DNA of 26,750 nt from a virus, in the UHGV virus genome UHGV-1449992; one strand, written 5' to 3'. The notes under the pieces were generated by a model. That model had not been told where the DNA came from. It saw nothing but the letters and a program-made list of their open reading frames with translations, and made no database searches. This document shows positions 8,256-26,741 of the stretch, in pieces; positions within the stretch are counted from its first letter, which is position 1; each line of letters starts with the position of its first letter. Both the position numbers and the translations under genes were made by a program.

Positions 8256-8660
8256 ATGTCAAAACAGAATCTTAAAGCGCTGGCGCTGGCCCCGATGGCG
8301 GGTTTTCGTAAAAAAGAAGTCACCGTTCCGGAATGGGAAAACGCCAAAGTTATCATTCGTGAACCATCGGCTGAGGCCTGGATTCGCTGGCAGGGGATTG
8401 CCAGCCCGGAACAACCAAAACTACCGGAAGGGCAGGAAGCGCCAGAGGTGCCAGAACTGACCCCTTCAGAACGCGCGTTCCGCACGATGCGGGCAGATGT
8501 CACACTCTTCATTGATATTCTGCTGGATACCGACCTGCAGTACGTTTTCACCGTCGATGATACCGAACAGGTTGAAGCAATTTATGGCCCTGTCCATTCC
8601 CGGTTGCTGAAACAGGCGCTTGATCTCATTCGTGATGCGGATGATGCCAAAGCAAAGTAA
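8256..8660 (+). CDS. Tail assembly chaperone (lambda gpG analogue)
   Basis: 134-aa acidic ORF immediately before the tape-measure region, followed by an overlapping -1 frame ORF. Confidence 0.7.
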   Translation: MSKQNLKALALAPMAGFRKKEVTVPEWENAKVIIREPSAEAWIRWQGIASPEQPKLPEGQEAPEVPELTPSERAFRTMRADVTLFIDILLDTDLQYVFTVDDTEQVEAIYGPVHSRLLKQALDLIRDADDAKAK

Positions 8661-8968
8661 AAATGCCTGGCATGCAGTTCCTGATGGCGCTGGCGCTCCG
8701 GATGGGACGCACGCTGGGCGAACTGCGACAAACCATGACGGTTGGCGAATTCAGAATGTGGGCTGAATACGACCGTATCAGCCCGATCGGTGATATCCGT
8801 GGCGATATTCTCAATGCCCAGCTGGTTTCAGCGATGTACGGGGCGCAGGGCGGTAAAGTCACCATCGAAGATGCTCAACTCAAGTGGAGCACAGAAGAGG
8901 ATGAGGTAATCGACAGTGGCGATCCATTTGCCGGATTAGAGGCCGCTTTGCTCGCAGCATCGGAATAA
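8645..8968 (+). CDS. Tail assembly protein T-like extension, likely expressed as a G-T fusion by -1 programmed frameshift
   Basis: The -1 frame relative to G is open from 8645 to TAA at 8966-8968 and overlaps the last 5 codons of G; the A-rich sequence GCC AAA GCA AAG TAA AAA sits at the end of G. Translation ...MTVGEFRMWAEYDRISPIGDIRGDILNAQL... is gpT-like. Confidence 0.6.
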   Translation, partial: CQSKVKMPGMQFLMALALRMGRTLGELRQTMTVGEFRMWAEYDRISPIGDIRGDILNAQLVSAMYGAQGGKVTIEDAQLKWSTEEDEVIDSGDPFAGLEAALLAASE

Positions 8969-8983
8969 AATTGAATCGTCTCC

Positions 8984-9010
8984 AGCCTCGCTTCAACGCG
9001 GGGCTTTTTT
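8984..9010 (+). terminator. Rho-independent terminator after the G-T genes
   Basis: AGCCTCGC-TTCAA-CGCGGGGCT stem (one G-U pair) followed by TTTTTT. Confidence 0.55.
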
Positions 9011-9154
9011 ATACCCAAATTTCACCGCGCATCTCACGCGCACTTCACACAGAACCTTTCAGGATGAGCCTTGAGGATACCGGCTGGCTGTCGGTGCCTT
9101 TCTGTGGGCCGGATTCCTGTGAGACAAGGTTCATCACTAAAAGGTAATACCGAT

Positions 9155-9910
9155 ATGTCTAACATTGTCCCCATGAATTATGATGACCATTCATTCCCTT
9201 TTGCTTCTGATTGCTGGTTTAATGCCACAGTTGCTGCAAAGCATCACAGGAAGAGAGTGAAGAACTGGACAATTCTGGAGTCAACAAGGGATTACGTTGT
9301 CGAGTTGGCGCAAGAGCTTGATATTGAACCATTCAATTCTAAAGGGCAGATTTCTACCCTTTTAATTAGGATTGAGAAAGGCCGTTATGGCGGCACATGG
9401 ATGCACCCAGAGTTGGCCGTTGAGTTCGCCCGTTGGTTGTCAGTCAAATTTGCCCGCGCCTGCGACCGCCACATTAAAAATTTGCTGCTGAGTAAAAATT
9501 TTCAGCTCACTGAAGATCAGATTGTCGGCCTCATGGTCTGCCAGCAACCCAGTTCCTGGGAAAAAAGGTTTAAAGACCCGTTCTACCAGGCACTGTCGAA
9601 AATGTCCGGCATTCCTTATTTTGGTCATGTCGGCGGATGTCCGGCGTTGTTCGGTCAGATCACCGCTCGCTGGGTCTACGGTGTAGCACTTCCTGATTAT
9701 GTCTATCAGGCAGCTAAACAGGCAGCCGGCAACAGCAAGGAGAAGATTCATCAGCATCTTAAGCCGGATGCGCTGGAGAAGGTCGAGCAGCAACTGATCG
9801 CCGTCACAAACATTGCCAGTTGCAGCATTGACCAGAAGGACTTTGAGGCCCGTTGCATGGCTGCCTTTCCTGTCAAAGGGCAGATGAAGCTGCTGTATGC
9901 GGCGGCATAA
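9155..9910 (+). CDS. KilA-N domain protein (N-terminal KilA-N DNA-binding domain; C-terminal region possibly P63C-like); accessory gene
   Basis: ATG 9155 preceded by AAGGTAA. N-terminus ...FNATVAAKHHRKRVKNWTILESTRDYVVELAQ...RIEKGRYGGTWMHPELAVEFARWLS has the hallmarks of KilA-N; not a structural gene. Confidence 0.65.
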   Translation: MSNIVPMNYDDHSFPFASDCWFNATVAAKHHRKRVKNWTILESTRDYVVELAQELDIEPFNSKGQISTLLIRIEKGRYGGTWMHPELAVEFARWLSVKFARACDRHIKNLLLSKNFQLTEDQIVGLMVCQQPSSWEKRFKDPFYQALSKMSGIPYFGHVGGCPALFGQITARWVYGVALPDYVYQAAKQAAGNSKEKIHQHLKPDALEKVEQQLIAVTNIASCSIDQKDFEARCMAAFPVKGQMKLLYAAA

Positions 9911-9912
9911 CC

Positions 9913-10170
9913 ATGAATAACCGAATCGTTGAGTGCGCCTCCAGAGCGGGGCGCGACTTCTCTGAGTTCATGAAAGGCGAGAAGAACATGATGGAGGCGC
10001 TGCGGTCTGCGGAGGAATTCACCGAGCAGTTACGCATTCACGGCTGCGTTAATCACCATTTCGTCAATTTCATGATGATGAAAGCGATAATGAAGGTGTT
10101 CGACGATATGCAACGCGAGGAGCAGCGTGAAGAGCGCCGAAGAAAACGAGCAGAAAAGAAAGGCAAATAG
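9913..10170 (+). CDS. Small hypothetical protein (85 aa) with strongly basic/acidic C-terminal tail; accessory gene
   Basis: ATG 2 nt after the KilA-N stop codon (translationally coupled geometry); C-terminus DDMQREEQREERRRKRAEKKGK. Confidence 0.45.
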   Translation: MNNRIVECASRAGRDFSEFMKGEKNMMEALRSAEEFTEQLRIHGCVNHHFVNFMMMKAIMKVFDDMQREEQREERRRKRAEKKGK

Positions 10171-10186
10171 CCCACCCGTGTGGGCT
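10169..10186 (+). terminator. Stem-loop after the small accessory gene (weak terminator or RNA-stability hairpin)
   Basis: AGCCCAC-CCGT-GTGGGCT perfect 7-bp stem overlapping the stop codon; poor U-tract. Confidence 0.35.
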
Positions 10187-10202
10187 TTCATCGCTAACTA
10201 CA

Positions 10203-10253
10203 GCGATCCTTTTGCAGCCTTAGAGGCCGCTTTGTTTGCAGCATCAGCTTGAA
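10203..10253 (+). pseudogene. Remnant 3' end of a second T-like tail assembly gene (recombination scar)
   Basis: About 48 nt with 6 mismatches relative to 8919-8968; translates SDPFAALEAALFAASA* versus the authentic T C-terminus GDPFAGLEAALLAASE*. Confidence 0.6.
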
Positions 10254-10328
10254 TTAAACAACGATAGCTGAAGTCTTTCTTAACCAATGGTAGGATTTGA
10301 GTACTTTTCTACCTTTTGGGATAAAAAA

Positions 10329-10850
10329 ATGAAAAAAATATTGGGTGTTTTATCTTTAGTCGTTTTTGCTATAGCATTTATTATTGCGTTAAGGCAACCA
10401 ATATCAATCGTATTTCTTATTGCTGTTTTGGCGATTCCTTTAAAATATATAGATAAAATTGGCGGAGAGATTGCTTCTCTTTTGATAATATTCGGTTCTA
10501 TCTTTGTTTTGTTTTTTGTTAACTCAATGGTTCCTTTATGGGGGGAGAGGTATGAGAATCATGAGGAGTTAGTGAGAATTAGCGAGAGCGATAGGCAGAA
10601 AAGATACAACAATATGAATGTTATATCAGCAAGCAACTCTGGTGTTAAGTCTGCATTAAAAGACCCTGAATCCGCAACCTTCAAAAATCAGAGCGTTGGT
10701 CGTGAAGGGTATGTGTGCGGTCAGGTAAATGCTAAAAACAGCTTTGGTGCATACGCCGGGTTTAAAAGGTATGTAAGTAAAAATGGCATGACAATTATTG
10801 ATGATGGCGGATCTGAATTTTCGAAACTATGGGGCGAGATTTGTAAATGA
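10329..10850 (+). CDS. AT-rich accessory membrane protein (about 3 predicted TM helices plus a soluble roughly 100-aa C-terminal domain), function unknown
   Basis: ORF with visibly lower GC than its neighbours; hydrophobic N-terminus KILGVLSLVVFAIAFIIAL...IVFLIAVLAIPL...LLIIFGSIFVLFFV. Alternative in-frame start at 10287. Confidence 0.6.
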   Translation: MKKILGVLSLVVFAIAFIIALRQPISIVFLIAVLAIPLKYIDKIGGEIASLLIIFGSIFVLFFVNSMVPLWGERYENHEELVRISESDRQKRYNNMNVISASNSGVKSALKDPESATFKNQSVGREGYVCGQVNAKNSFGAYAGFKRYVSKNGMTIIDDGGSEFSKLWGEICK

Positions 10851-10870
10851 TACATTCTTGCTAATTAAAG

Positions 10871-10893
10871 AAAACCGCTTAGGCGGTTTTTTT
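10871..10893 (+). terminator. Rho-independent terminator after the membrane-protein gene
   Basis: AAAACCGC-TTAG-GCGGTTTT followed by a T run, directly upstream of the tape-measure start. Confidence 0.6.
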
Positions 10894-10911
10894 ATATCTG
10901 CGAGGATATAA

Positions 10912-13900
10912 ATGGCAACTTTACGCGAGCTTATCATTAAGGTTTCAGCAAACTCTCAATCATTCCAGACTGAGATCGCCCGCGCATCACGCATGGGGCA
11001 AGACTATTATAAAACTATGCAGAATGGTGGGCGTCAGGCTGCTGCTGCTGCGAAGGAAAGCCAAAAAGCTCTTTCCGAGTTAACGGATGGATTTGCTTCA
11101 GCGGGTCGAGCTGCCACAATTGCAGCTGCAGCATTTGCAACAGGAAAACTGGTTCAGATTGCAGACCAATGGAACTCAGTAAATGCACGGCTTAAACAAG
11201 CCTCAGTGTCTACGAATGATTTTACTTTATCTCAAACCCGATTAATGGCGATCAGCCAGAGTACGGGCACTGCTTTTACTGATAACGCTAATTTATTTTC
11301 ACGCGCGGCAGCATCAATGCGTGAATTTGGCTACAGCTCAGATGAAGTACTCAAAATCACCGAAGCGGTATCAACAGGACTAAAACTATCTGGTGCAAGT
11401 ACAGAAGAGGCCGGCTCTGTTATTACCCAGTTTAGCCAAGCGCTTGCTCAAGGTGTTTTGCGTGGCGAAGAGTTTAACGTGGTTAACGAAGCCGGGGATC
11501 GTGTCATCCGTGCCCTGGCTGCTGGTATGGGGGTTGCCCGAAAAGATCTTAAAGCGATGGCTGACCAGGGGCAACTCACGATTGATAAAGTCGTACCAGC
11601 ATTAATCAGCCAGTTAGGTGTGTTACAGGGGGAGTTTTCCTCGTTACCGCCGACAGTTTCCGGTTCAATGCAAAAAGTCACTAACTCCTTTATGGCATGG
11701 GTTGGAGGGGTAAACCAGGCTACTGGTGCAACAGACGCACTTTCTGGCGGTCTTGATGGGCTGGCAGGTACGCTGGATTCTCTTACATCTTCTGCTGTCA
11801 GCGGGGCCCTCAGTGACGTAGCAGATAATATGTCACTAATTACCACCGCCGCAGGTGGCCTAGTTGGGATCGGATTAGCCCGGTATCTTGGCGGGATTGT
11901 TACCAGCGCAAGCAGCGCTACTGGCGCACTTATTTCAGCCGCAAAATCTGAAGTAGCCCTTGCAGTAGCCCAGGAAAAAGCCGCGCAATCTTCCGTTGCT
12001 GCTTCCCGCGCCGCAGTTTATCGTGCCCAGCAAGCCCTTCAGAGTGCTAAAAGTGCAGATGTTCAGGCCGCACAACAGGAGAGGGTTGCAGCCGCAGAAG
12101 CAAAGGTTACTGCTGCACAAGGTCGATTGACTACAGCCCTCGCCACCGGGACAGCTACAGAAAAAGTACGAGCACGAACAGCTTTGGAGCGGGCTCAGGC
12201 CGGACTTGTGGCAGCAAAAAATGCCGATGCACAGGCTATTGCAGAAAGAAAACTTGCCACAGCTCAAGCGGCGCTTAGCCGTAATATTTCAGGTAGGGTT
12301 TCTGCTCAAAATAACCTTAACAGCGTTACCTCTGTCGGCACCCGGTTGATGAGCGGGGCTCTTGGGCTGGTCGGTGGTATACCCGGGTTAGTAATGCTGG
12401 GTGCTGGCGCATGGTACGCTATGTATCAAAGCCAGGAACAAGCAAGAAAATCAGCTCAGGAGTATGCCAGCCAAATAGATCAAATCAGAGAAAAAACCTC
12501 CTCAATGACCCTACCTGAGGTCGATAGTAATCGCAGATTATCGGTTGAGGCGATGCAGGAACAAAAGCGCCTAATCGAAGAACAAGAACGGAGCGTTAAA
12601 AGTCTTAACGGACAAATAAAGGATTTAAATGAAAGTAGAAACAAGCCAGGCATTACTCAAGAAAATGATTTGAATATTACAAAGGCTATCGCAATTCTTA
12701 CCGAACAGATTGTCGTAGAAGAAGACAAGCTTCGTCAGATGCGAGAAAAGGCAAGCGATATACTAAAGGCGCAGGAGGAACAAGAAAGAAGAAGAAACGA
12801 TCTTATTAAAGATCGCGCCTGGCGTCAAAATGCTGAATACCAGAACCTTGTAATGATGACTGGTAAGTATTCCGAAGTTAACCGTTTACTTGGATTGGGA
12901 AACCAGCTTTTAATGGAACGGCAGGGCTTGGTTAACGTGCCAATGCGAATGCCTCAGGCTGATTTAACATCTCAACAAACAGCCGCACTGGAAAAAAGCC
13001 GCCGGGATTTAGATCTCTCTACACGTAAAGGCGAAGACAAGGAGCGCACCAGACTTGGCTATGTTGCAGATGATTTGGGGCTGAAGGATGAACCTCAATT
13101 CCAGACCGGAAGACAAGAGATAATTAATAATGGCATTAAAGAATGGAAAAATAACGAGGCAAATAAACCCACCCGGAAAGCGCCAAAAAGCGAAGAATTA
13201 AAAGCCGCCGAGAAGACAGAAGATGTTTACAAGCGTCTTATTAAACAGCAGGAAGAACAAATCGCTTTGGGAAGCCAGAATACCGAACTGGCTAAAGTCA
13301 AATACCAGGTGACGCAGGGTGAATTAGCTTCTCTTGAACAAGCCAAAAAAGAAATAATTCTGCAAAATGCAGCGCTTATCGATCAGAAAAACATTGCTGA
13401 ACAGTTAAAAACGTTCCGTGAGGGGCTGGCTGACAGCAACGCTGCTGCTCGTGACCGGGGAAATATTGATTTTCTTGGCGCCGGGATGGGGGATAAGGCC
13501 CGCGACCGCATGAAGGAAATGGCAGATATTCGTACTGATTTTCTCAAACAGCAGCGCGACCTGCAGCGGGATTTCAGCAAAGGTCAGATTTCTGAGGACC
13601 TGTACAAACAGCAAACGGAAGCGCTTCAGGCGGCGCTTACTGAACGGCTCCAGATTCAGGAGGACTACTACAAGAAAACCGATGAACAGCAGTCAGACTG
13701 GCGGGCGGGGATCAGCGATTCACTGATGAACTACGCCGATCAGGCTGCTGACCTCAGTTCAATGGCTGCCACCGCAACCAGCGAAATTCTGGATGCCACC
13801 ACTAACTCTATCTCCAACAACCTGACCAGCGTCCTGACTGGTGCGACTTCGTTCAAAGATGGGATGTCGAACATTTTCAGCTCTCTGGGTGAAACGGTGA

Positions 13901-14493
13901 TTAAGACGTTGATACAGATGGCAACACAGGCGCTAATCACCAAAGCGATTATGGCGTCGTTCGGCGGTGGGGCTGGTGGAATGTTCGGGAGTCTTCTTGG
14001 CGGAGGTGGGGGAGGTGGCAGCACCGGGACGGCCATTCAGAGCGCTGGTGCTAATCTTTCGTTTAATGCTCTGGGTGGTGTCTACGATTCACCTTCACTT
14101 TCCGCATACAGCGGCGGTGTATACAGCACTCCGCAGTACTTTGCGTTTGCGAAAGGCGCGGGCGTGTTCGGTGAAGCGGGACCCGAAGCGATTATGCCCC
14201 TTACCCGTGGCGCTGACGGTTCGCTGGGGGTTCGTGCGGTTGGACGTGAGTCACCGGCAGTCCAGGATGCTGCAAGGCAGCAGCAGGAAAGACAACTTCT
14301 TTCAACAGGTGATATCAACGTCAATTACCACCTCACAGGTAAACCTGATGATGTGATGATGCAGACAATGGATGCCCACGGTCGCCGCCTGGCTAAACAG
14401 ATTAAATCTGAACTGACGAGCGACGTTAACAATCCTCAAAATGCTTTCGGTAGAGCACTTTACTCCAACCTTCAGCCCAAAAAACCACGATAA
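10912..14493 (+). CDS. Tail tape measure protein
   Basis: 1193-aa ORF, Ala/Gln-rich coiled-coil-like body, Gly-rich stretch near the C-terminus; position after G/T. Confidence 0.9.
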   Translation: MATLRELIIKVSANSQSFQTEIARASRMGQDYYKTMQNGGRQAAAAAKESQKALSELTDGFASAGRAATIAAAAFATGKLVQIADQWNSVNARLKQASVSTNDFTLSQTRLMAISQSTGTAFTDNANLFSRAAASMREFGYSSDEVLKITEAVSTGLKLSGASTEEAGSVITQFSQALAQGVLRGEEFNVVNEAGDRVIRALAAGMGVARKDLKAMADQGQLTIDKVVPALISQLGVLQGEFSSLPPTVSGSMQKVTNSFMAWVGGVNQATGATDALSGGLDGLAGTLDSLTSSAVSGALSDVADNMSLITTAAGGLVGIGLARYLGGIVTSASSATGALISAAKSEVALAVAQEKAAQSSVAASRAAVYRAQQALQSAKSADVQAAQQERVAAAEAKVTAAQGRLTTALATGTATEKVRARTALERAQAGLVAAKNADAQAIAERKLATAQAALSRNISGRVSAQNNLNSVTSVGTRLMSGALGLVGGIPGLVMLGAGAWYAMYQSQEQARKSAQEYASQIDQIREKTSSMTLPEVDSNRRLSVEAMQEQKRLIEEQERSVKSLNGQIKDLNESRNKPGITQENDLNITKAIAILTEQIVVEEDKLRQMREKASDILKAQEEQERRRNDLIKDRAWRQNAEYQNLVMMTGKYSEVNRLLGLGNQLLMERQGLVNVPMRMPQADLTSQQTAALEKSRRDLDLSTRKGEDKERTRLGYVADDLGLKDEPQFQTGRQEIINNGIKEWKNNEANKPTRKAPKSEELKAAEKTEDVYKRLIKQQEEQIALGSQNTELAKVKYQVTQGELASLEQAKKEIILQNAALIDQKNIAEQLKTFREGLADSNAAARDRGNIDFLGAGMGDKARDRMKEMADIRTDFLKQQRDLQRDFSKGQISEDLYKQQTEALQAALTERLQIQEDYYKKTDEQQSDWRAGISDSLMNYADQAADLSSMAATATSEILDATTNSISNNLTSVLTGATSFKDGMSNIFSSLGETVIKTLIQMATQALITKAIMASFGGGAGGMFGSLLGGGGGGGSTGTAIQSAGANLSFNALGGVYDSPSLSAYSGGVYSTPQYFAFAKGAGVFGEAGPEAIMPLTRGADGSLGVRAVGRESPAVQDAARQQQERQLLSTGDINVNYHLTGKPDDVMMQTMDAHGRRLAKQIKSELTSDVNNPQNAFGRALYSNLQPKKPR

Positions 14494-18972: not shown

Positions 18973-19300
18973 CGCCTTTTTTGGAGCAAAAAACATGGCC
19001 TTTAACCCGGAGCTGGGGAGCACGTCTCCCGCTGTTCTGCTCGATAACGCCGAGCGCCTGGATAAGCTAGTGAATGGTGATGTGCTGACCGAACCGGACC
19101 GCGCGGGCGTTGATCTGGATACTTGGCGCGGAATGATGGCGAAAAACGATGAGGTTAGGAAAAACCTGATCCCATTGAGTAAGCAATACATGACGATTGA
19201 GGCGGCGCAGGCTGATATCGCGAATATTCCAGAGGGGTCAACGACCTATGTGAGAAGCCCAGGCAATATAGCCCTGGCATTTGAAGTTATTAATAATGGG
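18947..19300. repeat. Left arm of an inverted repeat (leader plus 5' roughly 300 nt of the tail fibre gene)
   Basis: Leader 18947-18997 is identical to the reverse complement of 26692-26741 apart from a 1-nt A-run indel; the coding part is about 80% identical at nucleotide level. Confidence 0.8.
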
Positions 19301-22300
19301 GGAGTGCTTGAACCTACATGGCGAGCAATGCCGTCGCAGGCTTATGTAGATTTTACTTTATCCAGCGCGGGACAACTGCCTTCAGCGATAATGACCCGTG
19401 ACGAAATATACGCTTCGGTCGAGAGATACGGGCAGTGGACTCGTACTGATACCAACGGATGGGCTGTCGGAGTCAAATCCAGTGGTAAGCCAGTGAACAG
19501 CCTGGCGCTGTGGCTGAATAACCTTTCTGAAATCAGCACGCTTTCTGTTTCTGTTTATCACCGCACTGTTGACGGTTTTTCAGTTCTGCCGGGCGCCGCT
19601 ACAGACAAGCTAATGAGTAGCCAGTCGGTCGCATCTGAAGACGTAGCGATAACTCAAGCACTGGCGCAAGGGTATCAGTTAGTCAGGCTCACCGTGCCTG
19701 ATGTACTGCTTAAATCTGATGAAATCATTCTGTTCGTCGTTAAAGCGCTCGATGCTTCAGGCGCTCCAGTTTATCTGGGGTGTGGCCGGGCGCCGGTTGA
19801 ATCAGGACAGGTTTCTGATTTAAATAACTCTCTGGGCGGTTTCTGGCTTGATGTCGCCCAGACAGCATGGAAGACAGTTACCTCATCTGACAGTCTGTAC
19901 CGGCTGGCTTACAGGGTCGGCTATTTCAGTACGGCAGCCAATAATTACTCGGCCTTTGCTCTCTCCCGTAGTGTTGTGCAGGAGGTTGTGGGAAACAGCT
20001 CAAATTATGCGACGGGCACGACCTTGTCAGGGCGATTTTATGGCTGGGCACTTGGTTTCAAATCTGTGCCAGGGGCGTTCGATATGATCACCCTTTACCA
20101 TAACAACCTCGATGCGGTGGCATATATTGATTACAGGATTGTTCTGCGCGAATTGACTTACGGTACTGCTGCGCAGCCTCTCGGCACTATCGCAACGGAC
20201 AGAGAGGTATTCTCATCACGTAAACTTCCACCGCCGCAGGGGAATAGCCTTTTCACCGCTGTTGATTACCCAGTTCCTGAACTTGTGGTACCCGCAGGAT
20301 ATTTTGCTGCAATAGAACTGCACCCGCTGCAGTGGAACGGCGATACGGCGGACATGGGATGCCAGGCTCATAACTATGCAGGGGAGACATTGCCAACCGA
20401 TATTGGCAGAGGCTATTTTGTCAATCGTAATGATAACGTATGGCGCGTAATATCAGATTCTACTAATGGACTCGCGTATGCACTTGCTCTTGCCGAGTGG
20501 GGAGGCATCCCTCAGGGGGTTGAAAAAGCACAGGGTGAAATCTCGACGCTGAATTCACTAGTTGTTCAGACCAGCCAGACCGTTGCGGAAATGAATACCT
20601 ATGAGATGGAAACGTCTTTTGAAAAAGCATCAGATAATCTTCAGTGGTCCTATGCATCTATGGTTGAATCTGCTCGATTCTGGCGGTGGGCGGTGCCAGT
20701 TTCTGCAGAAGCATCTGAGTTAAAATCCATCGCCATGTGGCTTGATGGCGTATCTCTTAATACCATTCTTCAATGCGACGTTTATTTCCGGCTGACATCA
20801 AACCAGACCAATACATCGGGACCGGGAGCTGTATCTGGTGACATTCTGGCCTTGACAGCAAATGTCACGCCGTTGCCAGCTAATACAGCGATGACAAAAA
20901 TCACGCTCCCGGTAGACCGTCTGACGGTACCGGCTGGTTATTTCCCGATCGTGGCTGTGACCGCATATTACAGTGCTGGCGTGAGCGGAAATCTGGGGTC
21001 AGGCTCGAAATCCTACAGCGCTGGTGATAATCCGGCTACGTACCTCAAGGGCTGGTACCAACGTTTTGACCGCACCGGTTGGCAGACTATCCCTGCGGGG
21101 ACATATGCCGCTGTCGCTGTCAGTGCTGTACTTGTCACCGCTCAGGATCTGCAGGAGAAAATTGCGTCTCTTGAATCCGGTTCTGATGTAACCGCCGATT
21201 ATTCCGGGGACAGCATCGATCGCTATGCACCGCAGGTAGCGGCTACTGGATTAACAGCCGTCATTACTGGTAACGCCATTCTCCGCGGGTCAGCAAAACC
21301 TATATCGGGGACGCTGACATTTGATGCGACAACGGTTGGTAGCACGACTGTCGCCAGCAGTCTTGTGCAGGCATCAGCGGCAGCACAATGGCCATCTAAC
21401 CCTAATGCCTGGTTGGGCGAGAAGCGCATCAGCGCAGTGACCGTAACCAATACTGCAACGAGCACACCGTTAACACCAGGGATGCACTATAACGTTGACA
21501 GCTACGGCGGGAAGCTGAGAGGACTGACGGCAACCACCTACGCTGTCAGTGTGACGTTTACGTACACGCGCGAGCGTTACGACCTGATTCAGATTGACCC
21601 GACGTCACTCGCACTGTCAGTGAAAAAAGGGATGGAACGGGCATTTGACGTTCAGGAATATCGTCCCGCGCCTGATGCCGGAAAAGTCGCGCTTTATTAC
21701 GTTCTGGTCGCCGGAAGCACGCTCGAATTCGATCCGGTTCACCGTTATGTAGACCTTGGCGGCGAGATGCTGGATGGCAAGGATTATGGCTTGCTGCGGC
21801 AGCACAACCGGCGCTTCCTTCAGAAAACGCTGGCGCGCCTGAATCGTGGTCAGGCGATTACGCTGGTAGGGCACGGAGACTCAATCACCGCAGTGTCTAA
21901 TATCAACAGCCCGGCGACGACACCGAACGGAACAACGCGTGACCTGCAGAGGTTTTTGCAGGGAGGCTATGGCAGCGACACACTGACGAACTTGTATCCC
22001 GCGCAGGACTGGGGGGATGGCGGTGGTGCTGTTCATGTCAGTATCGGCTGGAACCGGGTGCTGAAGAAGCATTTTGAAGATGTTTACGGGTCAGAAGTGA
22101 CGTATTACAACTTCGGAATGTCGGGGACGACCTCGGCATCTGGTGCGGGTTCAGACCGTCTCGGCGCGATTACCGCGCTTTCACCGCACCTGACGGTTGT
22201 CGGGTTCGGTATGAACGATAACGCGGGAAGTACGCTGTACGGAAACCTGATGACCATCATCAGCACGCTGAAAGCTGCGGGTTCTGAGGTTGTTCTGATG

Positions 22301-22555
22301 CCGGTGCCGCGCACGTCAAATACCGAAGACGGACGCTATACCCAGGACCAGACCCGGTATATGAACCGGCAGATATACAGAGCCGCGATTGACGGAGGCG
22401 CAGCATACGCACCGGCGGACTGGCTGACGGACGACAACAGCAAGGGAGGCATGGGCATTGCCACCACCTCTCTTACTGGCTCAGACCTGCGCAACCATCC
22501 GGGCGGATACGAAATGAGCATCTACGGAAAGGCGCTGGTTAATGTGTTCTGCTGA
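18995..22555 (+). CDS. Tail fibre/spike protein A: conserved N-terminal anchor domain, central body, C-terminal SGNH/GDSL-type hydrolase (esterase) domain
   Basis: 1186-aa ORF with GGAG ribosome-binding site. C-terminal motifs LVGHGDSITAV (GDS block), VVGFGMNDNAG (GxND block) and SDLRNHPGG (Asp/His block) are in SGNH order. Confidence 0.8.
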   Translation: MAFNPELGSTSPAVLLDNAERLDKLVNGDVLTEPDRAGVDLDTWRGMMAKNDEVRKNLIPLSKQYMTIEAAQADIANIPEGSTTYVRSPGNIALAFEVINNGGVLEPTWRAMPSQAYVDFTLSSAGQLPSAIMTRDEIYASVERYGQWTRTDTNGWAVGVKSSGKPVNSLALWLNNLSEISTLSVSVYHRTVDGFSVLPGAATDKLMSSQSVASEDVAITQALAQGYQLVRLTVPDVLLKSDEIILFVVKALDASGAPVYLGCGRAPVESGQVSDLNNSLGGFWLDVAQTAWKTVTSSDSLYRLAYRVGYFSTAANNYSAFALSRSVVQEVVGNSSNYATGTTLSGRFYGWALGFKSVPGAFDMITLYHNNLDAVAYIDYRIVLRELTYGTAAQPLGTIATDREVFSSRKLPPPQGNSLFTAVDYPVPELVVPAGYFAAIELHPLQWNGDTADMGCQAHNYAGETLPTDIGRGYFVNRNDNVWRVISDSTNGLAYALALAEWGGIPQGVEKAQGEISTLNSLVVQTSQTVAEMNTYEMETSFEKASDNLQWSYASMVESARFWRWAVPVSAEASELKSIAMWLDGVSLNTILQCDVYFRLTSNQTNTSGPGAVSGDILALTANVTPLPANTAMTKITLPVDRLTVPAGYFPIVAVTAYYSAGVSGNLGSGSKSYSAGDNPATYLKGWYQRFDRTGWQTIPAGTYAAVAVSAVLVTAQDLQEKIASLESGSDVTADYSGDSIDRYAPQVAATGLTAVITGNAILRGSAKPISGTLTFDATTVGSTTVASSLVQASAAAQWPSNPNAWLGEKRISAVTVTNTATSTPLTPGMHYNVDSYGGKLRGLTATTYAVSVTFTYTRERYDLIQIDPTSLALSVKKGMERAFDVQEYRPAPDAGKVALYYVLVAGSTLEFDPVHRYVDLGGEMLDGKDYGLLRQHNRRFLQKTLARLNRGQAITLVGHGDSITAVSNINSPATTPNGTTRDLQRFLQGGYGSDTLTNLYPAQDWGDGGGAVHVSIGWNRVLKKHFEDVYGSEVTYYNFGMSGTTSASGAGSDRLGAITALSPHLTVVGFGMNDNAGSTLYGNLMTIISTLKAAGSEVVLMPVPRTSNTEDGRYTQDQTRYMNRQIYRAAIDGGAAYAPADWLTDDNSKGGMGIATTSLTGSDLRNHPGGYEMSIYGKALVNVFC

Positions 22556-22614: not shown

Positions 22615-25600
22615 TTAAAGACACGCTTTCCAGCAGTACAGACCTCCGTGATCGTATGTCGATGCGCCGTTACCCAGACCTTCATACAAATCGGAACGGT
22701 CAAAGGAAAGCATAAAAAGCTCCGTTTCATCTCCATTAGTGAACGGGACCAGCGTGCACCATGGCCCCGTTGTGTTCGGAGCCAGATACACATCCTGCAC
22801 AAATTCCCCCAGGAAGGTCAGACCTGCCTCATACTTGCGCAGATGCAGTCGGTTGGCCGTTCCTCCGCTTGTCAGGTAGGTTGTCTCGCCGAAATGAACG
22901 AACTGATTCCCGGTATCGCGCACGCCAGCAGGGACTTCTGCCGTCGTATATTCCGGCACAATACCGTCGTACAGCGTCGGGCTCCGGAAGGTTTTGCATC
23001 CACTGGAGATGGTGTTTCCCGTCATCACCCACTGGCTGCTCGACGTTTCATAGTAGAAATCAATATCCTCCACGTAGCTTGCCCCGATCCCGAAAAAACT
23101 GCCGTTGGCGTTCTTCAGTTGCACGGAGTTTCTGACGATGATCACGCCGCCCTGCAGCAAGTCCTGTTTCGTCTCAAAGTACAGTTTTGGTCGATTGTTA
23201 TCGGCCAGCCCTTTCCCCTGATAGTCCATACCGCAAGAGATGCCCTTCCAGCTCTGACTGTTCCGGTCATACACCGCCTTGATACTGTCATCACCCAGCA
23301 CGACATCCTCATCGGTTCCGTCAGTCCGAACCTGGAAAATCGCGCCCACCATCTGCACTTCACCGCTGTTGAAGTTGATACGGACTATCTGAGTGTACAG
23401 GTCGGAGATAGTGGTCCCTGTTCCCTCAACGAGAAAATAAAGCCAGTTACCGCGCTGAATAAACGTCCCGTCTTCATAGGTCAGAAAGCGAATGGAGACG
23501 GAATTCGCCCCGCTGGCAATTCGGTTTGAAAAACCACTAAAGACAGCAATATCACTGGCCGAATATGCATCCGTTTGTGCGAACACGTACGTTTTCCACG
23601 TGTCCAGGTATTCCAGCCTGCGGGCATCAAAGATGGCATAGTGCTCATAGCGGCCAATCCATTTCCACGTCCCGTCAGCGTTCACTTTTTTTAGCAGCAG
23701 TGACACCCCGGTATTCTGCACCTGAAGCACTGCGCCGGTCATATCCGAACCGGTGAACGTGGTGGTATCAAGCAGACTCCCTGCGGCGTAGATTTCACAG
23801 ATAACCTGGCTGTTCGAGACGCGGACCGAAACACTGTTCTGCTGGTCAACATCCGCGAACATTATCCCCATCGTGGCATTGCCTGCCAGCCTGTCGATCG
23901 CGATCTCACTGGTTGCAAAGGGCATATAGCGATCCGCGAACATCACCACCCGGCCATTTGCTGTCGGGTTACGGAAAGAGACCTTTCCTGCTGACCAGGA
24001 ATAAGCAAACACATTCCCGGCGGTGATATCGTAAATATTGCTCTGCAGATTCCAGGGATTGTTTTCCAGGTCCATAAAAGAGAGCATGAACGAGTCAGCG
24101 GCATTGTAAAAATCGCGACGCGCCCACTGCTTAGTGAAAGTGTATTCCAGAGGGTTGCTGAAACTGTCGAAGTCAGGCGTCTTTTCAGGCAGCCCGGATA
24201 AATCGACATGGTAAGGCGCGTTAAAAACTTTTGCTTTTACCTGACTGCTCCGCGAGGACTGCTCAATCATGGCGGATACGTCATTGAATCTGGCGACCTG
24301 ATTGGAATAAATCTTCCTGACGGCGTATACGGGATCGGTTGTTTTTCTGACGCGCACCGCAACGTAACCGTCCTGTGTGGCCACTCCGCGATACGTTGCC
24401 GTCACATATCCGCCGCCCGATTTGAAGGTGAAGAGGTCCGACACCCACCCCTTGTCCGCGTCACATTGCATGATATAGGCGATAAGTTCTCCGACGGTGG
24501 CGGAGCCGTACTGCCCGTACATCTCGACAGAGTCGCCTTTTCGCACCGGGATGTAATACATCCGCCAGACACTGTAAGCAGAGCCGGAGACGATATTACC
24601 GCCGCTGTACATTACTGAGTTATCAGCAATGACTGATGCCACGCTGGTATAATCGATGGTTTTTACCGGCCCTCTGAGGTCTGATGCAAAAGCTTTATCC
24701 TGAGACGTCCGTGTTATGGTTGCCGCGGGTGTGGTGACGCGTACGCGCACGTAAACGAAACCATCCTGGGTTGCCACGCCGGCCATTACGCCGTTACTGG
24801 TGACACCCGGTGATGTGTAAGTGGCAAGATTAGCCACCACCGCCATTGCCGCATCCAGCTGAATGATATAAGCAATAACTTCGCCTGCCGTGCCGGAGCC
24901 GATTTGCCCGAAATAGCGCACGATATCCCCCGCGCGAACAGGAACATACGCTGCTTTCCAGTTCTCACCTGCGGTGTCAGAAATCATTCCGCCTGAGTAT
25001 ATAACCCGCCCCGTGATAGTGTATGTATCCGGTGCACTGGTCACGTCCAGGGTTGTTCTGTTAGCCGCAGCAATATCGGCCGGGTTCATTACAGCGTATA
25101 CGTTGCCGGGCAGGGAAAACAGTTGAGTGGTCTTTGTAATGGTTGCTGCCGGATCAGTCACACGCACCCGGACATAAACAAAACCATCCTGTGTGGCGAC
25201 ACCAGTCATAACACCAGCGCTGGACGAACCGGGCGAAGTATAGGTGGCGAGTGGCGCCACAAATTTCATCGCACTGTCGAGCTGGATGATATAAGCCAGT
25301 ACCTGGCCCGAAGTGCCGGAGCCGATTTGGCCGTGATACTGAATAACCTCTCCTGCTTTCACGGGCAGATAAGCTGCTTTCCAGCTATCTCCTGCGTTGT
25401 CCACCACCGAACCATCCGCTGACATGACACGCCCGATAATATATGTGGTGGTTGAAGCATTAGTGACATCCGTAGTCACGCGGTTGGCCGCATTCACAGA
25501 CGTTACAGTTTTGACGCCGAATACATCTGCGCCGGGTGTGAACCGCTCTCTGCTCTGATAAATCGCCGCTTCCGGCGTGGTCACCCGCACACGGAAGTAA

Positions 25601-26694: not shown

Positions 26695-26741
26695 GTTTTT
26701 GCTCCAAAAAAGGCGTTCGCGCAAACGAGGGTTTGAGCGAA
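26390..26741. repeat. Right arm of the inverted repeat (leader plus 5' end of fibre gene B)
   Basis: Reverse complement matches 18947-19300 (identical leader, about 80% identical coding part). Confidence 0.8.
26716..26741. other. 26-bp hix/gix-like near-palindrome (right copy, inverted relative to 18947-18972)
   Basis: TTCGCGCAAACG-AG-GGTTTGAGCGAA is the exact reverse complement of the left copy. Confidence 0.45.

What the first reader, a model, noticed from the sequence alone, without database searches (positions are those of the whole stretch)
10287..10850. Strongly AT-rich membrane-protein gene embedded in a roughly 50% GC structural operon
The ORF is visibly lower in GC than its neighbours (long runs such as TTTTATCTTTAGTCGTTTTTGCTATAGCATTTATTATTGCG) and encodes a protein with about three N-terminal TM helices plus a soluble domain (...KDPESATFKNQSVGREGYVCGQVNAKNSFGAYAGFKRYV...). 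The compositional contrast indicates recent horizontal acquisition from an AT-rich source. Small membrane proteins in prophage tail regions are classic superinfection-exclusion or abortive-infection effectors.
Basis: partly seen in the sequence, partly recalled or inferred. Interest (0 to 1): 0.55.

Follow-up and report, generated by a model that had tools for sequence, protein, structure and literature searches.

The report
AT-rich prophage moron, membrane-anchored periplasmic protein
This is a real, self-contained add-on gene ("moron") in the tail operon of a Klebsiella prophage. It sits where phage HK97 keeps its superinfection-exclusion gene and encodes an uncharacterised inner-membrane protein with a periplasmic domain, so it is a candidate new phage-exclusion protein, but nothing here tests that function.

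Summary
The gene is the GC minimum of the 26.7-kb window: GC 0.36 and GC3 0.33, against about 0.52 for its surroundings (z = -4.2). It encodes three N-terminal TM helices, a helical stalk of about 40 residues, and a small disulfide-containing alpha+beta domain. The true start is probably ATG 10329 (173 aa), not 10287.

It is a classic moron. It has a conserved extended -10 element 41 nt upstream of the start and a strong terminator. It lies between tail chaperone gene T and the tape-measure gene, the site of HK97 gene 15. In 23 sibling Klebsiella phages this site holds one of three mutually exclusive AT-rich cassettes:
- 20 carry an HK97 gp15/YebO homologue.
- 1 carries a secreted Cys-rich protein.
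- 2 carry this gene.

The C-terminal domain has no Pfam family. It belongs to a very large family (13,555 clusters) that recurs just upstream of tape-measure genes and just downstream of CI-type repressors.

"Recent acquisition" is not supported. The low GC persists across homologues of 35-50% identity and across dS of 0.3-0.6.

Superinfection exclusion at the DNA-entry step is the best reading (about 0.45), inferred from position and topology only. Interest is moderate.

The parts
8256..8660 (+). Tail assembly chaperone gene G, the upstream conserved neighbour.
   Evidence: PF06222 Phage_TAC_1, E 5e-44.
8663..8968 (+). Tail gene T, the left border of the accessory-gene hot spot.
   Evidence: PF06223 Phage_tail_T, E 6e-18.
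8984..9012 (+). Terminator-like hairpin plus T run after gene T, at the start of the nested KilA-N cassette.
   Evidence: Terminator scan: 8 pairs, 6 of them GC, followed by TTTTTTAT.
9155..9910 (+). KilA-N/P63C gene (antirepressor-like). It is a nested accessory insertion that is absent from the closest relatives.
   Evidence: PF04383 E 2e-17, PF10546 E 3e-11, phrog_1136 E 9e-129. The same module occurs in other contexts in Klebsiella phages. It is absent from L001 and L002.
9913..10170 (+). Small 85-aa gene that travels with the KilA-N gene.
   Evidence: phrog_875, E 3e-51. It is co-located with KilA-N in ST11-VIM1phi8.1.
10198..10252 (+). Remnant copy of the 3' end of gene T (...DPFAALEAALFAASA*), a recombination scar at the right end of the KilA-N insertion.
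   Evidence: 41 of 55 nt are identical to 8914-8968. Its stop-codon context matches the T genes of L001 and L002.
10288..10296 (+). Putative extended -10 promoter element TGGTAGGAT of the moron.
   Evidence: TGnTAnnAT lies at -39 to -41 from the start codon in 10 of 17 homologous loci. Near-variants occupy the same position in most of the others. The background rate is 1e-4 per nt. The element is conserved in L001 and L002. The generic two-hexamer scan did not call it.
10329..10850 (+). CDS of the AT-rich gene (173 aa plus stop).
10329..10535 (+). Residues 1-69: three transmembrane helices. Predicted topology is N-terminus in, C-terminus out.
   Evidence: Hydropathy profile. AF2 helices at 2-20, 24-39 and 46-67. 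In relatives, loop 2 carries a K/R-rich insertion and the N-terminus carries a soluble domain.
10539..10655 (+). Residues 71-109: a long helix, the periplasmic stalk.
   Evidence: AF2 helix 71-109, pLDDT about 64-90 across these blocks.
10656..10847 (+). Residues 110-173: conserved alpha+beta domain with two invariant cysteines (motif LKDPxSAxF...CGxVNAKNSFGxYxG...W...C).
   Evidence: Alignments A1 and A2. AF2 domain model with pLDDT 92.7. 13,555 clusters in the exhaustive search. No Pfam, NCBIfam or PDB match.
10868..10897 (+). Intrinsic terminator of the moron (11-bp stem, UUAG loop, U run).
   Evidence: RNA fold of the 55-nt stretch 10851-10905: -20.9 kcal/mol, z = -5.6, 0 of 200 shuffles as stable. 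Terminator scan. An equivalent terminator follows nearly every homologue.
10912..14493 (+). Tape measure protein gene, the downstream conserved neighbour and possible functional partner or target class.
   Evidence: PF20155, PF06120 and PF09718.

Best explanation
The gene is an autonomous accessory cassette (a moron) inserted at the tail-chaperone T | tape-measure junction of an HK97-like Klebsiella prophage.

Shown at sequence level:
- It carries its own conserved extended -10 promoter-like element, a short leader and a strong intrinsic terminator.
- It is one of three mutually exclusive AT-rich cassettes at this site in sibling phages.
- One of those cassettes is a homologue of the HK97 gp15 superinfection-exclusion protein.
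- Its product is anchored in a membrane by three TM helices.
- Its conserved C-terminal domain has two invariant cysteines and occurs elsewhere behind Sec or lipoprotein signals. The domain should therefore sit in the periplasm, on a helical stalk of about 40 residues.

Inferred:
- The protein is made in the lysogen.
- There it interferes with the passage of an incoming siphovirus's tape-measure or DNA conduit across the periplasm and inner membrane. That would be superinfection exclusion at the DNA-entry step.
- It could do this by binding the incoming tail-tip or tape-measure proteins.
- Alternatively, and given how invariant the domain's motif is, it could occupy a conserved host envelope component that entry needs.
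For: Composition and boundaries.

Promoter-like element: TGnTAnnAT at a fixed distance from the start in 10 of 17 diverged loci, against a background of 1e-4 per nt.

Terminator: (z = -5.6). Terminators follow nearly all homologues.

Hot spot and allelic alternatives:
- 23 Klebsiella phages share the tube-G-T module.
- 20 carry a YebO/gp15 homologue. It is 49% identical to gp15 over 51 aa (E 8e-18) and matches PF13974.
- 1 carries a secreted 94-aa protein.
- 2 carry this gene.

HK97 comparison: gene 15 lies at the same junction with the same low GC and a terminator. It blocks genome entry in a tail- or TMP-dependent way (PMC3594210; PMC10883804).

Position of homologues:
- Full-length homologues at 35-54% identity lie directly upstream of TMP genes even when the rest of the tail module is unrelated.
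- In a census of 43 non-redundant viral loci, the downstream neighbour is a TMP in 16. The upstream neighbour is an S24/CI-type repressor or HTH protein in at least 5.
- Domain-only relatives sit right after CI-like repressors (P0021, P0022), after an integrase (P0017), or beside TMP genes (P0016, P0024).

Periplasmic location: invariant Cys pair, plus lipobox or signal-peptide relatives.

Real gene: dN/dS 0.10-0.15.

Neighbourhood analogy: in P22, sieA (three TM helices, inner membrane) lies next to ejection gene 16 and the mnt-arc-ant region. The window, L006, L091 and L093 show a similar set of neighbours: an antirepressor gene, the membrane or periplasmic protein gene and a TMP gene.
Against: - No functional data exist for any member. 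Every database name is 'hypothetical'.
- There is no match to PADLOC or to any annotated exclusion PHROG.
- There is no homology to gp15, SieA or K139 Glo.
- The domain motif is nearly invariant across thousands of clusters. It also occurs in ordinary chromosomal contexts in 2 of 9 places sampled. That fits a conserved biochemical role better than an arms-race binder.
- There is no sign of diversifying selection.
- The promoter is inferred from sequence only. The generic promoter scan did not call it.
Confidence: 0.45

Rival explanations
1. It is a lysogenic-conversion envelope factor unrelated to phage exclusion. The prophage-expressed periplasmic domain would change an envelope property of the host, such as stress tolerance, cell-wall or lipoprotein handling, or serum or antimicrobial resistance. 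Lambda Bor and Lom are the model: they benefit the lysogen without acting on phages.
For: - The moron anatomy and the lysogeny-type positions fit any prophage-expressed cargo equally well.
- The domain is very widespread and highly conserved. It also occurs in chromosomal non-phage contexts, for example next to dsbB and ntrBC.
- In some phages it is fused to the peptidoglycan-binding modules PG_binding_1 or SPOR.
- Selection is purifying.
Against: - At this exact site the predominant alternative cassette is a homologue of a proven exclusion protein.
- The recurrent tight linkage to tape-measure genes across unrelated tail modules is not expected for a generic fitness factor.
Confidence: 0.25
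2. It has a lytic-cycle function for the phage itself. Examples would be blocking re-adsorption or futile injection of progeny into lysing cells, helping the phage's own DNA entry, or timing envelope disruption. It would then be expressed with the late operon rather than from the prophage.
For: - The gene lies inside, and is co-oriented with, the late structural operon, so it would be transcribed by anti-terminated late transcription (inference).
- It is consistently adjacent to tape-measure genes.
Against: - It is dispensable. 21 of 23 sibling phages with the same tube-G-T module lack it.
- It has its own promoter-like element and terminator.
- Domain-only relatives are co-oriented with, and directly downstream of, the lysogeny repressor.
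- Its membrane and periplasmic topology is incompatible with a cytoplasmic tail-assembly role.
Confidence: 0.13
3. It is an abortive-infection effector. The three TM helices would form or regulate a membrane-depolarising pore that is triggered when the periplasmic domain senses an incoming phage, killing the infected cell.
For: - It is a small multi-TM protein in a prophage.
- Some relatives occupy a position downstream of the CI-type repressor, as rexAB does downstream of cI in lambda (the lambda arrangement is recalled, not checked here).
Against: - The conserved unit is the periplasmic domain. Many relatives have only a cleavable signal peptide, a lipobox or a single TM helix and could not form a pore.
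- There is no partner sensor gene in the window.
- There is no PADLOC match.
Confidence: 0.07

Closest known systems
HK97 gene 15 moron (gp15, YebO-like superinfection-exclusion protein; Juhala et al. 2000, Cumby et al. 2012, as summarised in PMC3594210)
   Same: - Same junction, between the tail assembly chaperone G/T genes and the tape-measure gene.
- Same low GC: 0.33 for gene 15 and 0.36 here.
- Same layout of a short leader, a small envelope-protein gene and a terminator just before the TMP start.
- A gp15 homologue occupies this very site in 20 sibling Klebsiella phages.
   Different: - No sequence similarity, and no PF13974 match.
- gp15 has 62 aa and one TM helix, with no globular periplasmic domain.
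- This protein has 173 aa, three TM helices, a stalk and a disulfide-containing domain.
- Its function is untested.
P22 SieA (inner-membrane superinfection-exclusion protein)
   Same: - Similar size, 162-164 aa against 173 aa.
- Three predicted TM helices and an inner-membrane location for SieA (PMC10883804).
- It has its own promoter.
- It lies directly beside the gene for the DNA-delivery conduit protein it counteracts (gene 16) and beside an antirepressor region (mnt-arc-ant). This parallels the neighbourhood of KilA-N or Ant antirepressor, membrane protein and TMP seen here and in L006 and L091.
   Different: - No homology (hhalign probability 0.2%).
- SieA has a different TM arrangement and no C-terminal periplasmic globular domain.
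- The host phage is a podovirus with ejection proteins instead of a tape measure.
Secreted or membrane-anchored exclusion proteins of temperate phages: Vibrio K139 Glo (periplasmic) and Streptococcus TP-J34 Ltp (surface lipoprotein)
   Same: - Each is a small secreted or membrane-anchored protein expressed from the prophage and involved in exclusion. K139 glo is annotated as a periplasmic protein involved in phage exclusion.
- Ltp exclusion is overcome by changes in the tape-measure protein (PMC10883804).
- Domain-only relatives of the present protein occupy the same kind of repressor-operon position as glo.
   Different: - No sequence relationship to Glo.
- Ltp was not compared here.
- Predicted fold of the present domain: an N-terminal helix, four strands and a C-terminal helix. 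Its closest PDB matches are weak and generic.
PHROG families phrog_16400 and phrog_2320 (unknown function)
   Same: True sequence membership: E 1.4e-42 and 3.1e-26. phrog_16400 corresponds to the long form with an N-terminal extension.
   Different: These families carry no functional annotation. The window protein lacks the first ~93 positions of the phrog_16400 profile (it matches positions 94-272 of 272). In long-form relatives this N-terminal extension of roughly 95 residues contains a conserved wHTH-like segment of about 70 residues.

Membership tests
Moron (sense of Juhala/Hendrix: independent transcription unit added between conserved phage genes) | An extra gene between neighbours that are adjacent, or differently occupied, in collinear relatives. 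| tested here: met
   23 Klebsiella phages share the tube-G-T module. The T|TMP gap holds one of three unrelated cassettes, in 20, 1 and 2 phages respectively. Homologues of the gene also occur at other intergenic sites of tail modules.
Moron (sense of Juhala/Hendrix: independent transcription unit added between conserved phage genes) | Nucleotide composition deviates from the surrounding genes. | tested here: met
   GC 0.364 and GC3 0.33, against 0.49-0.57 and 0.51-0.67 for the neighbours. z = -4.2, the global minimum of the window.
Moron (sense of Juhala/Hendrix: independent transcription unit added between conserved phage genes) | Own promoter. | tested here: inconclusive
   A conserved extended -10 element (TGnTAnnAT) lies at -39 to -41 in 10 of 17 diverged loci, with near-variants in others. 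The generic -35/-10 scan called nothing on the + strand. No transcript data are available.
Moron (sense of Juhala/Hendrix: independent transcription unit added between conserved phage genes) | Own terminator. | tested here: met
   Hairpin at 10868-10893 plus a U run. The surrounding 55-nt stretch folds at -20.9 kcal/mol, z = -5.6. Equivalent terminators follow the homologues.
Moron (sense of Juhala/Hendrix: independent transcription unit added between conserved phage genes) | Expressed from the repressed prophage. | not testable with these tools
   This needs RNA-seq, 5'-RACE or proteomics of an uninduced lysogen.
HK97 gp15 / YebO-like exclusion proteins (PF13974) | Sequence homology to YebO/gp15. 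| tested here: not met
   BLASTP E 0.75 over 7 residues. No PF13974 hit even at E up to 10. The positive control works: the L108 cassette protein and gp15 both match PF13974.
HK97 gp15 / YebO-like exclusion proteins (PF13974) | Located between the tail assembly chaperone and tape-measure genes, followed by a terminator. | tested here: met
HK97 gp15 / YebO-like exclusion proteins (PF13974) | Blocks genome entry of specific siphoviruses in a tail- or TMP-dependent way. | not testable with these tools
   This needs plating, adsorption and DNA-entry assays.
P22 SieA family | Sequence homology to SieA. | tested here: not met
   hhalign of family profile A2 against P22 SieA gave probability 0.2%.
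Known anti-phage defence or exclusion families in PADLOC and PHROGs | Profile match to an annotated defence or exclusion family. | tested here: not met
   PADLOC: 0 families at E up to 1. PHROGs: 7 hits, all of unknown function.
   The gene is absent from 21 of 23 sibling phages. It has no Pfam or NCBIfam match. Its predicted topology is membrane plus periplasm.
Unnamed family of the LKDPxSAxF...CGxVNAKNSFGxYxG domain (no Pfam entry) | The conserved motif with two invariant cysteines in a domain of about 65-80 residues (helix, four strands, helix). | tested here: met
   Invariant columns in A1 and A2. 13,555 clusters at E up to 1e-3 and 5,457 at E up to 1e-10. AF2 model with pLDDT 92.7.

The most novel reading that the evidence does not exclude
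The C-terminal domain (LKDPxSAxF...CGxVNAKNSFGxYxG, disulfide-bonded, with no Pfam entry) defines a very large family of prophage-encoded envelope proteins that nobody has recognised as such. These proteins are tethered by three TM helices, one TM helix, a lipid anchor or a signal peptide. They would act in the periplasm to block genome delivery by incoming phages. Their genes are placed next to the tape-measure gene or in the repressor operon. The window gene would be the three-TM representative of a new and widespread exclusion mechanism.
Probability: 0.35. Interest if true: 0.7.

Novelty: new variant of a known kind. Interest (0 to 1): 0.5.

Why it matters
Prophage-encoded exclusion proteins decide which temperate and therapeutic phages can infect clinical Klebsiella strains. 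Very few are known in Gram-negative bacteria, and their mechanisms are mostly unsolved.

This locus offers a natural three-way comparison at one hot spot: a gp15-like cassette, a secreted Cys-rich protein, and this three-TM protein with a periplasmic domain. It also points to a Pfam-less domain of more than 13,000 clusters that recurs at the two classic lysogeny-expressed positions.

If the exclusion reading is confirmed, a large block of 'hypothetical' prophage genes would gain an annotation. It would also give a handle on the trans-periplasmic step of siphovirus DNA entry.

If the reading is wrong, the gene is simply one more ordinary moron of unknown function.

Tried and rejected
- **Profile libraries for the protein and its relatives:** Pfam, NCBIfam and PADLOC gave nothing.
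- **PDB by sequence:** nothing with a single sequence or with a profile.
- **Foldseek against PDB, full-length model:** nothing significant.
- **BFVD:** only uncharacterised phage proteins and lipoproteins.
- **afdb50:** the library was not available.
- **Homology to HK97 gp15, P22 SieA and K139 Glo:** tested and rejected.
- **Rfam:** no RNA family anywhere in the window.
- **Generic sigma-70 scan:** no + strand promoter. The extended -10 element was found by comparing upstream regions.
- **Original gp15 paper (PMC3430355):** not held, so I relied on the authors' addendum and on the P22 SieA paper.
- **Upstream ORFs as split versions of the long-form N-terminal domain:** I considered this for the ORFs coupled to homologues in L006 and L023. 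They are related to each other but not to that domain.
- **Holin or spanin:** rejected. The gene is not in a lysis cassette, and the conserved unit is a globular periplasmic domain.
- **'Recent transfer':** rejected on the persistence of low GC across deep divergence.
Full report
**1. The observation**

The ORF reported at 10287..10850 (+) exists. It coincides with the deepest GC trough of the window.
- 300-nt windows across it have GC 0.33-0.39, against 0.50-0.55 on either side.
- As a 522-nt window the gene has GC 0.364, against a mean of 0.519 (sd 0.037, z = -4.2).
- The global minimum of all 26.7 kb lies at 10276. The next lowest place is 0.414, inside the tape-measure gene.
- The edges are sharp. 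GC falls at about 10250, right after a stop codon, and recovers at about 10940.
- Third-codon-position GC is 0.33 (0.24 in the hydrophobic part, 0.40 in the soluble part), against 0.51-0.67 for neighbouring genes. The trough is therefore not merely a by-product of Phe/Ile/Leu-rich helices.

The predicted protein has three hydrophobic helices followed by a soluble part. Between three diverged Klebsiella alleles dN/dS is 0.10-0.15, so the gene is under purifying selection.

One correction is needed. ATG 10287 overlaps a conserved promoter-like element. Relatives are annotated and conserved from the ATG equivalent to 10329. The CDS is most likely 10329..10850, giving 173 aa.

**2. Context**

The window is the morphogenetic half of an HK97-like siphovirus of Klebsiella. 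It encodes:
- small and large terminase, portal, capsid, and head-tail connector genes;
- tail tube, tail chaperones G (8256-8660) and T (8663-8968), and tape measure (10912-14493);
- DUF1833, a J-like protein, and two large receptor-binding-type proteins.

Between T and the tape-measure gene there are two accessory units.

The first unit (8984-10186) consists of a terminator, a KilA-N/P63C gene (9155-9910), a small phrog_875 gene (9913-10170) and a hairpin. It is bounded on the right by a 55-nt remnant of the 3' end of gene T (10198-10252). That remnant is 41/55 identical to 8914-8968, and its stop context matches that of the closest relatives.

Klebsiella phages vB_VIPKPNMC05 and ST899-OXA48phi17.2 lack this first unit. 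In them the AT-rich gene follows T directly. The KilA-N unit is therefore a later, nested insertion.

The second unit is the gene under study.

**3. Anatomy of the cassette**

I compared the upstream regions of 17 homologous loci, which fall to 35-40% protein identity with otherwise unalignable flanks.
- An extended -10 element, TGnTAnnAT, lies at -39 to -41 from the start codon in 10 loci. In the window it is TGGTAGGAT at 10288-10296.
- Near-variants (e.g. GGCTAGGAT, CTCTAGGAT) occupy the same position in most of the others.
- It is followed by a conserved purine-rich ribosome-binding region (GGGGATAGGGAT; GGGAT-A7 in the window).
- The motif's background frequency is 1e-4 per nt.
- The generic two-hexamer scan did not report a + strand promoter. 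The promoter remains a sequence-level inference.

Directly after the stop codon there is a strong intrinsic terminator. The hairpin is at 10868-10893 with a U run after it. The 55-nt stretch 10851-10905 folds at -20.9 kcal/mol (z = -5.6, 0 of 200 shuffles as stable). An equivalent terminator follows nearly every homologue.

A deviating composition, a promoter-like element, one gene and a terminator, all lying between conserved structural genes, together match the definition of a moron as restated in PMC3594210.

**4. The site is a hot spot with interchangeable cargo**

HK97 gene 15 was the first element to be called a moron. It lies at the same chaperone | tape-measure junction, has GC 0.33, and is followed by a terminator.

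Twenty-three GenBank Klebsiella phages share the window's tube-G-T module at about 85% nucleotide identity. Their T|TMP gap contains one of three mutually exclusive AT-rich cassettes.
- **20 phages:** an unannotated 77-aa single-TM protein. It is 49% identical to HK97 gp15 over 51 residues (E 8e-18) and matches PF13974 YebO.
- **1 phage:** a secreted, cysteine-rich 94-aa protein, GC 0.32.
- **2 phages:** the 173-aa gene.

The gene studied here is therefore a positional alternative to a family whose founding member is an experimentally shown superinfection-exclusion protein. That protein blocks genome entry in a tail- or tape-measure-dependent manner (PMC10883804).

**5. The protein**

AlphaFold models were built with 24-sequence alignments. 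The full-length model has pLDDT 86 and the isolated domain has pLDDT 92.7. They show:
- TM helices at 2-20, 24-39 and 46-67;
- one long helix at 71-109;
- a compact domain with four strands and a C-terminal helix.

The domain carries a strongly conserved motif, LKDPxSAxF...CGxVNAKNSFGxYxG...W...C, with two invariant cysteines. Relatives that consist of the domain alone start with Sec signal peptides or lipoboxes (LSGCS, LASCS, LAGCS). This places the domain outside the cytoplasm.

With an odd number of TM helices the N-terminus is then cytoplasmic. Three further points fit this topology:
- the MKK N-terminus;
- K/R-rich insertions in loop 2 of some relatives;
- a soluble N-terminal domain of about 70 residues in the long forms of the family. 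This domain gives weak FtsK-gamma-like winged-helix matches.

The topology is predicted, not measured.

**6. Family and distribution**

Full-length homologues are few. They comprise Klebsiella sequences at about 90% identity, metagenomic ones at 49-54%, and others at 35-42% such as Cedecea.

An exhaustive profile search gave 13,555 clusters at E up to 1e-3 and 5,457 at E up to 1e-10, but only 27 at E up to 1e-30. The C-terminal domain is therefore extremely widespread, while the three-TM architecture is a small branch.

**7. Where the family sits in genomes**

Full-length homologues lie directly upstream of the tape-measure gene. This holds even where the chaperone and the rest of the tail module are unrelated, for example the Cedecea prophage with a DUF6246 chaperone and lambda-like M/L/K genes. 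A minority lie at other intergenic positions of the tail cluster.

I took a census of 43 non-redundant viral loci.
- The immediate downstream neighbour is a tape-measure protein in 16 (TMP_3 13, TMP_2 3).
- The immediate upstream neighbour is a Peptidase_S24 repressor in 5. HTH_3 (3) and Phage_CI_repr (2) hits were also found, but these counts may overlap. Chaperones and antirepressors occur in several more.

I looked up nine domain-only relatives individually.
- Two lie immediately downstream of, and co-oriented with, a CI-type S24 repressor. One of these overlaps the repressor's stop codon.
- One lies just after an integrase.
- One lies in a prophage early region.
- Two lie beside tape-measure genes, with antirepressor genes nearby.
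- One lies between the middle and late genes of a Mu-like prophage.
- Two lie in ordinary chromosomal surroundings.

The domain is therefore a general extracytoplasmic module that temperate phages recruit repeatedly. They place it at the two positions where lysogeny-expressed cargo is typically found.

**8. On 'recent acquisition'**

The low GC is not a recent signature.
- Homologues of 35-54% identity are as depressed relative to their own loci as the window gene is (gene GC 0.33-0.44, locus GC 0.43-0.54).
- The three Klebsiella alleles differ by dS 0.3-0.6, yet all keep GC3 at 0.32-0.33.
- All three alternative cassettes at this site, and HK97 gene 15, are similarly AT-rich.

The cassette is mobile, but its composition is a stable property of this class of element.

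**9. Most likely mechanism**

Shown:
- a moron with the anatomy described above;
- a protein with a predicted topology of N-in, three TM helices, stalk and periplasmic domain;
- allelic replacement of a gp15-like exclusion gene;
- recurrent linkage to tape-measure genes and repressor operons.

Inferred: the protein is produced in the lysogen and blocks an incoming siphovirus after adsorption, at the stage where the tape-measure or DNA conduit crosses the periplasm and inner membrane.

A stalk of about 40 residues (about 6 nm if fully helical) would hold the domain well above the inner membrane, where an incoming tail tip would pass.

The motif is almost invariant across thousands of clusters and shows no diversifying selection. 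Binding to a conserved host envelope component needed for entry is therefore at least as plausible as direct binding to the variable tape-measure protein.

The neighbourhood echoes P22. There sieA (three TM helices, inner membrane, own promoter) lies next to ejection gene 16, whose product it counteracts, and next to mnt-arc-ant. In the window, L006, L091 and L093 the recurring neighbours are an antirepressor-type gene, the membrane or periplasmic protein gene and the tape-measure gene.

I put superinfection exclusion at about 0.45.

**10. Rivals**

- **Envelope-modifying lysogenic-conversion factor with no anti-phage role (0.25).** It is favoured by the domain's conservation, its chromosomal members and its fusions to PG_binding_1 or SPOR.
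- **Lytic-cycle role for the phage itself (0.13).** It is disfavoured by dispensability in 21 of 23 siblings and by the repressor-operon relatives.
- **Abortive infection (0.07).** It is disfavoured because the conserved unit is the periplasmic domain, irrespective of anchor.
This is excluded by the variable presence, the absence of any structural-family match, and the topology.

**11. Comparison with known systems and novelty**

The gene works like, and sits like, HK97 gene 15. It is not a member of that family, nor of the SieA or Glo families. It does belong to phrog_16400 and phrog_2320, both of unknown function.

I classify it as a new variant of a known kind: a moron-encoded envelope protein at the classic exclusion-gene site, built on an uncharacterised and very widespread periplasmic domain.

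Interest is moderate (0.5). A moron at this position is expected. The points that make it a worthwhile and directly testable candidate are the three-way cassette polymorphism that includes a gp15 homologue, and the size and genomic placement of the Pfam-less domain family.

Noticed in passing
window 8914-8968 and 10198-10252, flanking 8984-10186: The last ~55 nt of tail gene T are present twice (41/55 identical). The copies bracket a cassette made of a KilA-N/P63C gene and a phrog_875 small gene, with its own terminator. The second copy has the stop-codon context of the relatives that lack the cassette. It therefore looks like a recombination scar from a nested insertion into the same hot spot.
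   Followed up: partly
L108 4534-4767 (Klebsiella phage 1 LV-2017, KY271401) and 19 other GenBank Klebsiella phages: An unannotated 77-aa HK97 gp15/YebO homologue lies between gene T and the tape-measure gene. It is 49% identical to gp15 over 51 aa and matches PF13974. No feature is annotated under this stretch in KY271401, and the listed Kp48xx records carry no annotation at all.
   Followed up: yes
L109 4515-4799 (Klebsiella phage ST13-OXA48phi12.2): A third alternative cassette occupies the same site. It encodes a 94-aa protein with a signal peptide and several cysteines (GC 0.32). A TAGGAT -10-like element lies upstream and a terminator lies downstream. It has no Pfam match.
   Followed up: partly
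relatives P0027, P0029-P0031, P0173, P0179, P0228; loci L022, L024, L036, L039: Long forms of the family carry a conserved N-terminal domain of about 70 residues, predicted to be cytoplasmic, ahead of the three TM helices. It gives weak or precomputed FtsK-gamma (PF09397) winged-helix matches. Many domain-only relatives instead start with a zinc ribbon followed by one TM helix.
   Followed up: partly
L006 5549-6004 and L023 3297-3635: In two distant loci a homologous AT-rich ORF of 112-151 aa overlaps the start codon of the family member. The two ORFs are 30% identical to each other (E 3e-17). This may be a partner gene. It is not related to the N-terminal domain of the long forms.
   Followed up: partly
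window 18995-22555 (+) and 22615-26724 (-): Two very large convergent ORFs (1186 and 1369 aa) share the same N-terminal module of about 120 residues (phrog_31290 and phrog_9750). This looks like two alternative receptor-binding proteins with a common anchor. The first has a C-terminal GDSL/SGNH esterase domain. The second has no significant Pfam domain.
   Followed up: partly
window 12300-13300: The middle of the tape-measure gene is the second lowest GC region of the window (0.41-0.44) and has a strong positive AT skew. It may be a mosaic segment or a compositionally biased coiled-coil region.
   Followed up: no
window 9155-9910; L006 4360-5238; L091 3030-4570; L093 6450-6998; P22 (L107 5241-6994): Antirepressor-type genes (KilA-N, P22_AR/Ant, AntA, often with Arc) recur next to the membrane or periplasmic protein gene at the chaperone | tape-measure junction. 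This resembles the P22 arrangement of gene 16, sieA and mnt-arc-ant.
   Followed up: partly
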